NCBI GenBank assembly: GCA_964016885.1
Contig: OZ024740.1
Coordinates: 383,346,001 to 383,410,000, forward strand
Length of the DNA stretch: 64,000 bases
From: Eledone cirrhosa
Taxonomy: Eukaryota
Reading direction: 5' to 3'
In this document: piece after piece, positions 1,753 through 41,408 of the stretch
How the letters are laid out: every line of letters starts with the position of its first letter
Numbering within the stretch: the stretch's first letter is position 1
Program-made: the position numbers and the translations under genes
Notes under the pieces: model-generated
Database searches by the model: none
What the model saw: only the letters and a program-made list of their open reading frames with translations
What the model was told of the DNA's origin: nothing

Positions 1753-1883
1753 AGCGTTAGTTCCACAACACTTTAGCAATGAGTATGATTTGCTAATCTG
1801 AGGTGGAATTAACGCTATACTGAATTGGAGTGAGTGGTCTATCAGCTTTGGATGTGACATCTGTTTACTTTTTTTAATCACTA
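1753..1883 (+). mobile_element. Miniature fold-back + tail unit between (TA)n tracts
   Basis: agcgttagttccac pairs with gtggaattaacgct, with an inner ttagcaa/ttgctaa stem (1753-1816). A ~65-nt unique tail then runs into (TA)n. Confidence 0.45.
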
Positions 1884-3034
1884 CATATATATATATATAT
1901 ATATATATATATATATATATATATATATATACATGTGTGTGTGTTATGAACGAAGGTGGTTAGTTTATGATTTTGAGACATTGCGGTAAGTATCAATTAT
2001 CTAATGTATCTATTTTTTTTTTCACACTGCGGTACATTCGTTATCTTTGACCACTCTGACAGGTAGCAAATAGTACATCATATTCAATATTAATCAGTTA
2101 CTAATAATGTGTTTTTGTTCAAGGTGAATGAATTGATATGGCAACGAATTTCGATGAACGAAACAAGGTTATAACTAAAGTGTATAGATTTCATCGGTTC
2201 CATTATCAATATTTATTCAACTCTTACATACTTTACATGCGTGACGGTCATTAGGTAACACGACATATGTACACAGACAGACAGACACACACCCAAACAC
2301 ACACACACACACACTCACACACACACATATATATATATATATATATATATATATATATATATATATATATATAGAGAGAGAGAGAGAGAGAGAGGGAGAG
2401 AGAGAAAGAGAACAGACATAAAAGGTGATAGAGTACCATGAAAATAGAGCGACTCATGTCTAAATGTTTAATAATTACATGTTGGTTCTGATTTCGATCT
2501 AGTACCATTTGAGTCACTTTAGACGAATATATACTTCTAAAGCCTCGGGTTAGCCAATAACGTTTCATTGAAATGTATAGTAACTTCAGTGTGGGTATGT
2601 TATTTAATATAGTTCTTTGACACAAAATATCATATACATAATGTGTATGCATATATAATCTACACTGGTTGTCAGTTACAATCGAACATGCATTTTTAGT
2701 ACTTACCAAACATTTAAAGTATTTTAGGCTCCTATCCAGTAGGGATCAGGCAAAACACATTCCAAACACCCGTGTTTTCAACAAGTAGATCATCCAGGAT
2801 ATTACGCCTGAAAGGATAGCCGATGCGTCAAAACTTGATATTCTTTATCGCTCACGAGAGGATGTAAAGCAAATTGTACCGATGCAGGATTTGAACTCAG
2901 GTGACAAGATCTGGAACTCATATGCAATCCTATATTTACTGATTGCTTGTCCACTGGTCCTTTCTGACTCTAGATTGTGAGAAGATTCAACGTTCTAAAT
3001 ATTGAGGCAAGTATATATATATATATATATACAT

Positions 3035-3218
3035 ATATGAAAAGAATCAGGACCCCGACGGCTGAGCTCCGGCCGTTTCTACAGCTAGTACAGATATAGC
3101 TGTTTAAAGGGCCGGAACTCAACCATCGGGGTCCTGACTCTTTTCATATTACCCACTCTACTACCCATAGTATCGAGTACTCTGGTGCGTTATGGTTCCT
3201 TACCGCACTTCCTTCGTT
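3035..3218 (+). mobile_element. Family A Penelope-like remnant, heavily 5'-truncated: short inverted arms + tail into (TA)n
   Basis: Arms at 3035-3087 and 3096-3149. The tail acccactctactacc...ttccttcgtt matches the tails at 25979-26057 and 63191-63269. The left arm read on - carries the ribozyme 3' half GAAA cggcc..agccg TC gggg. Confidence 0.8.
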
Positions 3219-4102
3219 ATATATACATATATATATATATATATATATATATATATATATATATATATATATATATATACACCGTTGTACTTCTTAATGG
3301 ACAACTCTCTAACCTATAAATGGGTAACATACTCTAGAAATTAGTTATAACTTCATATGATAGGCACGTATTTAAATCACCATTAATGTAGTTTAGGATA
3401 GTAATTTAACTAAGCTAGTTACCTCCCCTTACGCATTAATTCCCCTTAGTCATTCAGACACTTCCGGAATCTGGGCAGCATGATCTATTAATTAAGAACC
3501 GACTGGATACGGTTTATAGCTTGATTATATGCTGAACCACCGCGAATTATACGATAGACACGTGTTCTCTATATATATTGCGGCTCATGGATTATGTGAG
3601 TGGTGGTGTGAGCGAAGACAGTGGTACGGCTTTGCCTACGATACAATAAGGTTTATAGTATGCTGAAAGTTTTTGATATTTTGGTGTTTCCCTGCATCCG
3701 AGACTGTATATCATACAGATGTATGAGAATAAATGACTTAATAATTCAGCCCACAAAATAAGATCGATTGCCTGCTTCAACTGCCTGACCCTGCAAATAT
3801 CATTCTGACGCACTCTAATCATGTATAAATAAGACACGCGTGCATGCTACACGTGAGATTGTTTCATACACTGACTACTCTAAACTTTCCTCTTGCTTTA
3901 TCTTCATAGACTGCCAACGCTTCATGTTTGTCTTTATTTTCATTCTTGTTTTTATTTTATTTTTATCCTGTAACCTTTATATGTAAATTGCCATGCTATA
4001 TCATTTGATGAATGTCACCCCACTGTTGATCAATATGCGCATATGTTTTATGTGTCTCTTGGGTTGAAAAGGAGGTCAAGTATGTTATAGATCAGTAAAT
4101 AG

Positions 4103-4151
4103 TTGCTCCGAAGAATCCAAACCTCGGTTTGGAGGAAACAATTGTAAGCAA
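4103..4151 (+). ncRNA. Minimal type I hammerhead ribozyme, CCGAAGA (C4) core
   Basis: Stem I ttgct/agcaa; core CCGAAGA 4108-4114; stem II tccaaacc/ggtttgga; GAAA 4135-4138; stem III C-AATT-G with palindromic loop; GUA triplet. Lies ~40 nt upstream of a (TA)n tract. Confidence 0.75.
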
Positions 4152-4553
4152 ATAAATGACTTAAACTGAACTTTGATTATTGTAATCTCTCTATATATAT
4201 ATACATATATATACATGCATATATATATATATATATATATATATATATATATATAGGGTGGGTAAAATTACCTATATAAATATATTCCCTATATATATAT
4301 ATATTTTTGCGTTGCTTTCTTCCTTTTATGTTGTTCACTTGTGTCACTCGCTTTACGCAATTTACTTGTCCCAATACCTTTTTTTAGTTATTGCTCGCAC
4401 CATCCTGAGGTATATGATTTTTAATGCGATGAAATATCAATGATGGTTGGCAAATCACTGACGAAGGACTAATTTTATCATATGTAACCCATGTGCAACC
4501 ACGCAGTCTTCTTCTTTCTAATGATGTTTTACATATATATATATATATATATA

Positions 4554-38779: not shown

Positions 38780-39352
38780 CAGCTTCATAAATTACAAGAC
38801 ATAGTGCGACGAGTGCTCTTTTTTACCTCAATCAAAAGAGGTGCAATCCAACGTGAAGAGGCCTTTCTTAAAACAGGCTTCTTCGTGAGATGCCTAACAT
38901 GTTTAATATTTGAAGAGATGACAGTTGTTGATTCTCCATCCTCATCCCAAAGACAAGGACAATGTTCTGTAGTGTGGTCACTGTTTATGGACTCTCACAC
39001 CTCTGGTCATCTTTCACTCCTTCCTTACCACGCTTGAATTCATTAACCCAGGTTCGACAGTGGCTTTTGACGAGCTATCTTCACCTAATGTGTCTTGTAT
39101 GCCCTTATGGATCTTAGCTGGCATCATGATTTTCAACTGCGGATAGTTGATCATTTCTCGATACTCGAATTTCTCCGTTTTTTTAAAACTGCCAGAGTAA
39201 ATCAACTTTAAGAATCTGCGAAAAGAAATGAAAAAAAGTATTATGAAACCTAGCTAGCCCTGTATGAATATGTCGCAATCTTCACTCACAAAATTTAATT
39301 TGCATACATATTTGTTTTCTGCGTGAACTCAAAATATTTCAGTCATCCTTCA
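38780..39352 (-). mobile_element. Mariner DNA transposon relic (5' TIR + transposase fragments)
   Basis: EKFEYREMINYPQLKIMMPAKIHKGIQDTLGEDSSSKATV resembles the mariner N-terminal HTH, and an LWDEDG fragment is present. TIR-like end tttcagtcatccttca followed by TA. Confidence 0.7.
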
Positions 39353-39599
39353 TATGCATATATATATATATATATATATATATATGTAGATAAATCTACC
39401 AAGAGTTTACGGTAGTGTCCAATCCGTATGAAGAACTCAATGTAATCCGGATATCATGGAAAGAAGAGATGCAATGAAAAATCACTTTCGGTGAAAGATA
39501 AACGGAATACAGAGTCAAGATAAAATATAAAAAAAATAATGAATAAAACAATGAAACAGTTCCTTATATTAAACAAAAAAAGTTCATTATTTAAATTTA

Positions 39600-40530
39600 T
39601 ATATGCATATATGTGTATGTATATCCCTTTATTTATGTATGTCTGAGTTGTGTGAGCGTGTGGTGGTGTTTGTATGTATATACGCATATATGGATGTGTA
39701 TGTATGTGTATATATGCGTATATGTATGTGTGTATGTGTGTGTGAGTATATATGTATGTCTATGTATGAGTATGTATGTGTGTGTATGTATGTGAGTATA
39801 TATATATATATGTGTGTGTATATATATATATATATATATATATATTTATTATATGTGTGTGTATGTGTGTATATATATCTTTACATATGTGTATGTGTAT
39901 GTGTGTGTATGTATGTGTGTATATGTGTAATATGTGTATGTGTGTATATATATATATATATATATATATATGTATATATATATATGTGTCTATATATATA
40001 TATATATATATATATATATATATATATATATATTTATATGTGGGTATGTATGTGTATGTGTGTATATACATGAGTGTGTTTATGTATGTGTGTAGATATG
40101 TGTGTATATATATATATATATATATATATATATGTGTGTGTTGTGAATGTATATATATATATGTATGCGTGTATGTGTGTATATATATATATGTGTGTAT
40201 ATGAGTATATGTCTATGTATTTATATGTGTATATGTATGTGTCTCTATATGTATGCGTGTGTGTATGTGTATGTGTATTTATATGGTGTGTGTATGTATA
40301 TGTATGTGTATGTATGTGTTTGTGTATATGTGTATGTATATGTATGTATATGTATGTATATATATATATATATATATATATATATATCTATATGTATGTA
40401 TATTGATGTATATTTTATATTTTACTTGTTTATATATATATATATATATATATATATATATATGTATATGTATGTATATTGATGTATATTTTATATTTTA
40501 CTTGTTTATATATATATATATATATATTTT
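39600..40530. repeat. ~930-bp degenerate (TA)/(TG)/(TATG) microsatellite field
   Basis: Directly visible; source of the overlapping YI/CV ORFs. Confidence 0.95.
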
Positions 40531-41127
40531 CTTGATATATTTCTTTTTTCTTTTCCTTTTCTTTTCTTTTTATTTATAAATTTATAGATACATTTATAAA
40601 TAGGCAGTCTGCTGACACCGGTGTATACTGACCTCTCCCCCCCCCCACCTACCTTCTGTATCTGGATCTAAATATGTGTGGCAGTGTTTATGTGCGCGCA
40701 TTAATGTCCATATGCTTATGATAATAGTATATACACATATATATGTGTGTGGGGTGTGTGTGTGTATGTATGTTCGTGGTTGTGTGTATGTTTATGCGTA
40801 TGCGTGCGTGTGTGTGTGAATGTCCGTATATGTGTGAGTATATGAATGTGTGTATATATTTATTTTTATATTTATATGTATATACGTATTTTATCTGTAG
40901 ATTATAAACATACAGAGACATTAGCCTTGAATTTTTGTATTTACATACATCTTTTTGGCATGCGTATGCATGTGAACATATATCTTTATGCATATCTGTG
41001 AACGAAGTTAATTGCATATATACACACACCTAACTGTATAAACTTTTTGTATTTTCATTGGTCAATTTGAACTCTGTTCCCAAACAGACCTTTAATTTTG
41101 AATTGTTGTTATTATCAATAAATATAT

Positions 41128-41281
41128 TTCATTATTTCTGAAGACGGCTTATATATGTGTTGGTATGTATATTTAATTTTGATAGTTTGTATAATTTTGT
41201 ATAATTTTGTACATAGATCTGTTGAATATGCATGCCAACTCTAACACATATATATCCTAGAAACGATCGTTAAATAATGAA
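41128..41281 (+). ncRNA. Type I hammerhead ribozyme with ~115-nt stem II insert
   Basis: Stem I ttcattattt/aaataatgaa (10 bp); CTGAAGA 41138-41144; stem II tatatatgtgttg/taacacatatata plus gttggtatgtatatt/aatatgcatgccaac; GAAA 41260-41263; C-GATC-G; GUU triplet. Confidence 0.75.
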
Positions 41282-41408
41282 CTTTTTTTGTTTAATATAA
41301 GGAACTGTTTCATTGTTTTATTCATTATTTTTTTAATATTTTATATATATATATATATATATATATATATATATATATATATATATATATATATATATAT
41401 ATGTATAT

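What the first reader, a model, noticed from the sequence alone, without database searches (positions are those of the whole stretch)
1753..41345. One recurrent architecture: (TA)n - inverted arm - arm + unique tail - (TA)n
Seen in about 10 unrelated insertions: 1753-1883, 3035-3218, 6175-6552, 8806-10853, 15971-16170, 16178-16499, 17987-18427, 18478-21730, 24996-26057 and 39387-41345. One arm stops 30-130 nt short of the other, leaving an unpaired tail. In family A (3035 vs 24996) the inverted arm stops at essentially the same position in independent insertions, while the inner junction varies. Established: inverted pLTRs with 3' tails occur in Penelope-like elements. Inference: both ends of the insertion are primed in TA repeats from defined points on the RNA (twin or second priming), making this a systematic generator of genomic hairpins.
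Basis: partly seen in the sequence, partly recalled or inferred. Interest (0 to 1): 0.8.

Follow-up and report, generated by a model that had tools for sequence, protein, structure and literature searches.

The report
Twin-primed Penelope hairpins in TA repeats
These are back-to-back insertions of Penelope-like jumping genes in TA repeats, almost always with one long and one short fixed end, which likely means both cut DNA strands start copying the element's RNA at two different set points, a step so far left open for this element class.

Summary
The architecture is real and genome-wide. Nine of the ten loci belong to repeated families; 1753-1883 is unassigned. Natural full-length copies identify four families as Penelope-like elements (PLEs): two Hydra-clade, one Neptune-like, one Nematis-like. 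Each insertion is two 5'-truncated copies head-to-head in (TA)n. One ends at a fixed long site, the other at a fixed short site 34-134 nt inside. The four short-end junctions occur 16,085 times as exact matches. Inverted pseudo-LTRs with a tail and (TA)n targeting are published, as is in vitro initiation at two RNA sites. What I did not find in print is the pairing rule. Of 160 insertions picked by their short end, 127 had a long partner, 1-3 a short one and 30 were unresolved. In 12 of 13 resolved ORF-bearing copies the far end was the predicted opposite type. The untailed arm is often the deeper one (47 vs 14), which excludes simple fold-back of the tailed cDNA for those cases. Both sites carry 3-7 nt of TA complementarity, and the two arms share donor variants. 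Best model (0.7): twin target-primed reverse transcription from two fixed sites. This is a known kind of element with new mechanistic evidence.

The parts
1753..1883 (.). Weak candidate: 14-bp outer stem (1753-1766/1803-1816), 7-bp inner stem, ~67-nt tail, TA on both sides; family unassigned
   Evidence: z -4.3; no second copy in 1.47 Mb
3035..3217 (+). Family A (Hydra PLE), older copy: inverted short-ended arm 3035-3087, sense arm 3097-3149, tail 3150-3217
6176..6552 (-). Family C (Nematis-like PLE): tail 6176-6230, perfect arms 6231-6391/6392-6552
8807..10938 (.). Family B: tail 8807-~8902, (CA)n(TA)n, arms 8992-9414/10429-10851, Hydra-type endonuclease fragment ~9415-9800 (+) in the spacer, hammerhead-like cores at 9143 (-) and 10700 (+)
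13256..15312 (+).
15971..16168 (-). Family G: tail 15971-16039, arms 16040-16093/16110-16168; the same short end recurs in other copies
16178..16498 (-). Family H (decayed, ~80% arm identity): tail 16178-16239, arms 16240-16338/16400-16498
17277..17975 (+). Exception: both ends alike (long-long), SINE inserted in one arm
17987..18428 (-). Family D (Neptune-like PLE): tail 17987-18019, arms 18020-18223/18225-18428
18478..21731 (-). Family E (Hydra PLE): tail 18478-18564, arms 18565-18832/21464-21731, broken RT-thumb-linker-endonuclease 21485-~20200 (-), hammerhead-like cores at 18665 (-) and 21631 (+)
24996..26055 (+). Family A: inverted short-ended arm 24996-25362, sense copy 25363-26055 (arm 25617-25978, tail 25979-26055), hammerhead-like core at 25873
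39387..41344 (-). Family F: 133-nt tail 39387-39519, arms 39520-39594/41270-41344, microsatellite-rich spacer; the same two ends recur in other copies; no ORF seen
62797..63268 (+). Family A copy with the long end only

Best explanation
These are head-to-head insertions of Penelope-like retrotransposons in (TA)n with one long and one short fixed end, likely made when both nicked strands of the TA repeat prime reverse transcription at two different set sites on RNA from one donor copy. Steps: (1) The GIY-YIG endonuclease nicks both strands of (TA)n. This is inferred here; double-strand nicking and extension were shown in vitro for a Poseidon PLE. (2) Because (TA)n is self-complementary, both 3' ends read ...TATA and would pair with 3-7-nt TA motifs at the long and short sites. 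The motifs are shown; the pairing is inferred. (3) One strand takes the long site and the other the short site. The pairing is shown statistically; the geometry is unknown. It could be one RNA with strand displacement or two same-donor RNAs on a dimer. (4) Two cDNAs grow towards the RNA 5' end and stop at variable points, in family A mostly at -131 to -142. That edge may be the RNA 5' end (inferred, untested). (5) The two cDNA 3' ends are likely joined bluntly, by microhomology or with untemplated bases, and then repaired. This gives a hairpin, or a plain inversion when the long cDNA stops inside the tail.
For: Short-end-selected insertions: 127 long partners, 1-3 short, 30 unresolved of 160 (A 65/0/5 of 70; E 26/0/4; C 17/0-2/11-13; D 19/1/10 of 30 each). 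Tail-selected: A 29 of 30 have a short partner. E 23 of 30 have one, 7 have no inverted partner and 0 are long-long. Prediction test on 20 ORF-bearing E copies: the far end was the opposite type in 12 of 13 resolved, p=0.002; 7 were unresolved or had no known inverted end. L142 and L143 also fit. Genome counts balance for A: 7,250 short-end junctions vs 6,783 arms running into the tail. The untailed arm is deeper by more than 15 nt in 47 of 124 cases, the tailed arm in 14, equal in 63; in 9 the tailed piece stops inside the tail. Rare variants are shared between the two arms of one insertion: E 49 of 68 (4.0 expected), D 24 of 58 (1.8), C 6 of 6 (0.2). TA motifs occur at all 7 sites whose native sequence was read, against background of 3-15% for 3 nt. 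PMC11167929 shows both strands nicked and extended, with RT starting at two sites that bracket the tail.
Against: No biochemistry was done here. In PMC11167929 initiation was at a site NOT homologous to the cut DNA, with no difference in start site between strands, which does not by itself predict the pairing. On one RNA, overlapping arms of up to ~3 kb (L225) would need long strand displacement. Exceptions exist: short-short L241, possibly L221 and L232; long-long at window 17277, at neighbour 132134 and at L332; single-ended copies. Family A shows no donor signal (1 of 27 variants), but that sample was picked by an exact pattern. The 5' boundaries of 30 tandem E copies scatter from -49 to -971, with only 5 at -278 to -290, so one fixed RNA 5' end is not general. 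30 of 160 loci are unresolved.
Confidence: 0.7

Rival explanations
1. One target priming plus self-priming on an antisense RNA (or template switching) makes a hairpin intermediate. The element's own TA-preferring endonuclease then cuts it at the TA-like short site and joins it to the second target end.
For: Antisense self-priming was proposed in PMC3846280, and endonuclease-mediated resolution in PMC8557442. Short sites look like TA targets. Shared arm variants and one-of-each ends fit this model too. TA runs occasionally sit inside the tailed copy at the short site (L157).
Against: Fold-back of the tailed cDNA cannot give a deeper untailed arm, seen in 47 of 124 cases, including copies where the long ORF-bearing part carries the short end. 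The antisense version needs both polarities to work. In vitro RT starts at both tail boundaries. At L011 and L273 the junction T-run, read from the tail side, is longer than the A-run it would copy (weak, since homopolymers slip).
Confidence: 0.2
2. Each end picks the long or short site independently, and the symmetric long-long and short-short hairpins are later deleted faster because their stems run straight into the TA flanks.
For: A few symmetric cases exist. Deletion of perfect palindromes is established knowledge (recalled).
Against: The asymmetry holds in insertions of 1-7 kb with unequal arms and long spacers, where hairpin deletion should be weak: about 27 mixed vs 1-3 short-short, and 12 of 13 in ORF-bearing copies. 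It also holds in copies with identical arms.
Confidence: 0.06
3. The hairpins are library fold-back or assembly artefacts.
For: The loop of the 3035 hairpin was not recovered in the short-read data laid on it; coverage there is uninformative.
Against: Arms differ by 0-20%. Ends are fixed per family. About 2,900-3,400 reads in each of three other samples leave the element into TA at the short site, and opposite-strand joints map to 25918-25931.
Confidence: 0.01
4. They are MITE-like DNA transposons with terminal inverted repeats and TA target duplications.
For: Short copies look like TA-flanked inverted repeats.
Against: The same ends belong to RT plus GIY-YIG ORFs. The inner part is variably 5'-truncated and the ends are asymmetric.
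Confidence: 0.02

Closest known systems
EN+ Penelope-like elements with an inverted pLTR and optional tail (PMC3846280; PMC8557442)
   Same: Head-to-head inverted 5'-truncated copy, tail on one end only (either end), partial tandems, 5' truncation, (TA)n targeting for Hydra and Naiad.
   Different: Tails here are 33-133 nt rather than 30-40. Here the tail is not optional among two-ended insertions but paired one long to one short, counted over about 240 loci.
Poseidon PAc in vitro (PMC11167929)
   Same: Two RT start sites bracket the tail; both strands are cut and extended.
   Different: Different clades. Both sites here carry TA complementarity to the target, whereas PAc initiation was reported as non-homologous. 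In the main text I read, that paper does not link the two sites to the two ends of one insertion or to inverted structures.
Hydra clade, including Hydra-1_Obim of Octopus bimaculoides (PMC8557442 section 11 and supplement)
   Same: Families A and E (and fragments of B and 13256) have RWR, DKT, the CxCX5C linker, CxxC and CxH motifs, hammerhead-like motifs and (TA)n targets.
   Different: E is about 4 kb, longer than the under-3-kb elements described. No tree against the published sequences was built.
LINE-1 twin priming (recalled; paper not held)
   Same: The second target strand primes internally on the RNA by short complementarity and gives an inversion.
   Different: In L1 the internal site is variable, the event is a minority and the two parts barely overlap. 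Here the site is fixed, the event is the norm and the parts usually overlap to form a hairpin.

Membership tests
EN+ Penelope-like elements | Single ORF with PLE-type RT and C-terminal GIY-YIG endonuclease | tested here: met
   Full or near-full ORFs for A (L143, broken), E (L142), C (L222) and D (L245/L249). Pfam GIY-YIG E=1e-6 for D; RVT_1 below cutoff for C and D. No Pfam family above cutoff for A or E, whose assignment rests on motifs and on comparison by eye with Hydra-1_Amil.
EN+ Penelope-like elements | pLTR-ORF-pLTR partial tandem with adjacent inverted pLTR | tested here: met
   L142, L143, L245 and 36 genome matches of the E pLTR-ORF junction
EN+ Penelope-like elements | [quoted passage not shown] | tested here: met
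EN+ Penelope-like elements | Hammerhead ribozyme motif in the pLTR | tested here: inconclusive
   CUGAUGA/CUGAGAA...GAAA cores with plausible stems in A, B and E by pattern; none found in the window pieces of C, D, F, G, H. Rfam gave no hammerhead match. Folds did not show the full motif. Cleavage not testable.
Hydra clade (A, E) | RWK-like and DKT motifs, CxCX5C linker, no CCHH, CxxC and CxH around conserved E/N | tested here: met
   E: RWR, SDKT, CNCRNKSNC, CDLC, CRH. A: RWR, SDKT, CNCPDGYIF (last C replaced in this copy), CNLC, CKH
Hydra clade (A, E) | Phylogenetic placement with published Hydra proteins | not tested
   No tree built; published sequences were only read in the supplement
Neptune clade (D) / Nematis clade (C) | CX2-5CxxC linker and CCHH in the endonuclease; DKG-like motif | tested here: met
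   D: DKG, CDRPNCGIC, CSGC...H...H. C: DKSG, CTNRKCIIC, CTEGTC...H...H; linker spacing compared by eye with Fig. S2 rows. The split between the two clades is by eye only.
EN+ Penelope-like elements (F, G, H, 1753) | Link to a PLE ORF | tested here: inconclusive
   No tblastn hit in the window. F, G and H show recurring long and short ends; 1753 has no second copy.
LINE-1-type twin priming | Non-overlapping inversion at a variable internal site | tested here: not met
   The site is fixed, and the parts overlap except in 9 of 124 cases where the tailed piece stops inside the tail. It works like twin priming but is not the L1 form.

The most novel reading that the evidence does not exclude
Obligate twin priming is the normal integration route of endonuclease-bearing Penelope elements across at least three clades. 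One RNP assigns the two nicked TA strands to two fixed, TA-complementary sites on a single RNA, and both cDNAs can run off its 5' end. This would explain the tail, the inverted pLTR and TA targeting at once, and would have seeded on the order of 100,000 hairpins in this genome.
Probability: 0.4. Interest if true: 0.72.

Novelty: new member of a known kind. Interest (0 to 1): 0.5.

Why it matters
How PLEs build their inverted, tailed ends is named as open in PMC8557442 and left unvalidated in PMC11167929. A genome with thousands of young copies per family turns this into counts that separate the models. It also supplies near-intact natural ORFs and exact RNA sites for an in vitro test. If true, PLEs make the second junction with a second RNA-templated cDNA instead of ordinary second-strand synthesis. 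They would then be a large source of genomic hairpins and potential double-stranded RNA in this host.

Tried and rejected
DNA searches with the C tail and the A arm returned nothing, probably because the tool skips very common words; exact patterns were used instead. A direct genome-wide count of long-short, short-short and long-long pairs could not be made, so the ratios rest on sampled loci from the start of C1. Rfam gave only sub-threshold miRNA and snoRNA-type matches to hairpins and microsatellites. Pfam and PDB sequence searches did not recognise the Hydra ORF. No RNA holder was listed, so the RNA 5' end was not tested. The read-depth step at 25925 was rejected as evidence because it lies on an AATT that may be a library restriction site. 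Locus-specific confirmation of the 3035 loop failed for lack of informative coverage. The idea that ribozyme cleavage sets the ends was rejected: predicted cut sites (about -93 in A, -143 in E) match neither outer end, and only a few junctions fall near them. RNA folds at the priming sites were unremarkable (z about 0). Most flush-flush hits in the unbiased scan were internal TA runs inside tailed insertions, adjacent insertions or microsatellites. Earlier scan findings: none.
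Full report
Setting. The window is G000:C1:383346001-383410000 in a 3.0-Gb animal genome. The named homologues of the family E protein from a stated organism are Argonauta hians proteins, so the host is probably an octopod; this was not pursued further. Positions written -n count back from a family's long 3' end.

Observation. Self-comparison finds inverted arms at nine of the ten loci; the tenth, 1753-1883, has only a short stem. In each of the nine, one arm abuts (TA)n while the other runs on for about 33-133 nt before (TA)n. 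In 264 kb (window plus neighbours), 470 TA-run ends were tested. 52 had an inverted copy within 5 kb: 21 tail-type, 21 flush and 10 far. Five shuffles gave 0-1 hits each, and random anchors gave 15 of 401. 1753-1883 is weak and single-copy in 1.47 Mb. 8806-10853 has a microsatellite between tail and arm.

Identity. Longer natural copies were fetched for four families. E (L142) reads inverted short arm, pLTR, a 687-aa frame that ends at a stop inside the endonuclease, 3' region and long end. A (L143) reads inverted long arm, pLTR, broken ORF and short end. Both carry the Hydra-clade motifs listed in PMC8557442 (section 11) and resemble by eye the Hydra-1_Amil sequence in its supplement, which also lists a Hydra family from Octopus bimaculoides. 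D has Neptune-type and C has Nematis-type linker and endonuclease motifs. Window fragments at about 9415-9800, 13970-14489 and 20234-21485 match the Hydra proteins. F, G and H were not linked to an ORF but show recurring long and short ends. ORF and hammerhead-like motif orientation show that both 3' ends point outward (head-to-head).

Fixed ends and scale. Exact (TA)n-to-short-end junctions number 7,250 (A), 2,172 (E), 2,024 (C) and 4,639 (D), with 0 for the reversed controls; these are lower bounds. Arms running on into the A tail number 6,783. Scaling the 21 tailed structures per 264 kb gives very roughly 10^5 genome-wide; this region looks richer than average. Illumina reads from three other samples leave family A into TA at 25978 (3,427, 2,910 and 2,937 reads). 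They also show opposite-strand joints at 25918-25931 and about 500 molecule ends each at 25914 (-142). With arm divergence of 0-20%, this excludes a library artefact at family level; single loci were not confirmed.

Pairing. Thirty A loci chosen by tail alone (including the window's own copy and one near-duplicate pair) had a short partner in 29 cases, and one was ambiguous. Thirty E loci gave 23 short partners, 7 with no inverted partner and no long-long case. The reverse selection took the first listed short ends on C1: 70 A loci (the first 72 listed minus the two that lie in L157, described below) and 30 each of E, C and D. It gave 127 long partners, 1-3 short and 30 unresolved. Independent 50:50 choice would give about half short. 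For 20 of the 30 fetched ORF-bearing E copies I predicted the far end from the near inverted end; 12 of 13 resolved cases were opposite, one was long-long, and 7 were unresolved or had no known inverted end. In the unselected 264 kb, family A shows about 9 mixed, 1 long-long, 0 short-short and about 5 single-ended copies (counted by eye).

Which mechanism. Among 124 resolved insertions the untailed arm reaches deeper in 47, the tailed in 14, and 63 are equal within 15 nt. Fold-back of the tailed cDNA cannot make a deeper untailed arm, and fold-back of the untailed cDNA cannot make a tail. Two template-copying events, or an antisense template, are therefore needed. In 9 cases the tailed piece stops inside the tail, giving an inversion without duplication like L1 twin priming (recalled). 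The two arms of one insertion share rare variants far above expectation in E, D and C but not in the narrowly selected A set. L143 carries the same SINE piece in both arms. This points to one donor copy per insertion, and it does not separate one RNA from two. Native sequence at the sites reads TAT/TAT in A, TATAT/ATATAT in E, ATATATA/TAT in D and ATAT at the short site of C, against 3-15% background for 3 nt. This fits primer pairing, but it also fits cutting by a TA-preferring nuclease. In A, 51 of 65 insertions have their deeper arm ending at -130 to -144, only 2 end between -145 and -486, and 5 go deeper. Several have untemplated A and T runs on both sides of the -141 junction (L011, L269, L273, L275). 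I read this as run-off at an RNA 5' end, which is untested. E and D show weaker piles near -250 to -290 and -238, C shows none, and tandem E copies scatter widely.

Comparison with print. PMC3846280 (passages and Discussion read) describes inverted pLTRs with an optional 31-bp tail and proposes self-priming on an antisense template. PMC8557442 (abstract, passages, sections 3, 7 and 11, supplement searches) describes inverted copies, a 30-40-bp tail at either end attributed to endonuclease resolution, and (TA)n targeting, and calls the mechanism open. PMC11167929 (parts 1-3 of 4 of the main text; supplements not read, and they may bear on end pairing) shows two RT start sites and extension of both strands. 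PMC13282606 and bioRxiv 10.64898/2026.07.22.740005 (passages only) add nothing on this point. Five library searches listed no paper stating the one-long-one-short rule or applying twin priming to PLEs. Subscription papers such as the 2005-2006 PLE reviews are not in the library, so absence from print is not established.

Verdict. The elements and the architecture are of a known kind. The added value is quantitative evidence from three clades for coupled priming at two fixed sites (0.7), with self-priming plus nuclease resolution as the main rival (0.2). Interest 0.5.

Noticed in passing
L157:150-480 and window 8807-8991: A (TA)n or (TA)n(TG)n run lies inside the tailed copy exactly at the short site. 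It could mark a stall or slip of the long cDNA where the second primer sits, or nicking and repeat growth at that site.
   Followed up: partly
window 1314-1730 and 6067-6616; L020: Head-to-head arms with (TA)n at their centre; the family C insertion 6176-6552 sits inside such a centre. Junctions may seed new TA repeats that become targets.
   Followed up: no
window 17277-17975: Insertion with both ends alike and a SINE in one arm, flanked by a duplication at about 17373-17388 and 17578-17593.
   Followed up: partly
window 12444-12539, 15740-15885, 60747-61142: Further hairpins of the same look, older or with one flank lost.
   Followed up: partly
window 11137-11287 (+): Probable host exon encoding a hydrophobic segment and ending at a GT donor; the insertion cluster may lie in introns of a membrane-protein gene.
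   Followed up: no
window 49014-49919 (+) and 59645-60184 (-): Two 78%-identical LINE 3' fragments (weak zf-RVT match) in opposite orientation.
   Followed up: no
window 54712-56129 (+): Two frames (313 and 167 aa), one with a CCHC-like knuckle, probably a decayed LINE ORF1; a similar ORF lies in L223.
   Followed up: no
window 12873-12989, 16689-16880, 17380-17570, 31081-31178, 57066-57237, 59388-59591, 62268-62445, 63767-63843: Eight copies of one abundant SINE-like repeat; pieces of it also sit inside PLE arms.
   Followed up: no
L222:3043-6435 and L142:3500-3950: Long asparagine-rich in-frame stretches inside families C and E, like those described for rotifer Penelopes (PMC3846280). Family C frames look nearly intact in several copies, suggesting recent activity.
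   Followed up: no
window 29184-31090: About 80%-identical tandem duplication (29184-29745/30115-30723) with small inverted pieces; not identified.
   Followed up: no
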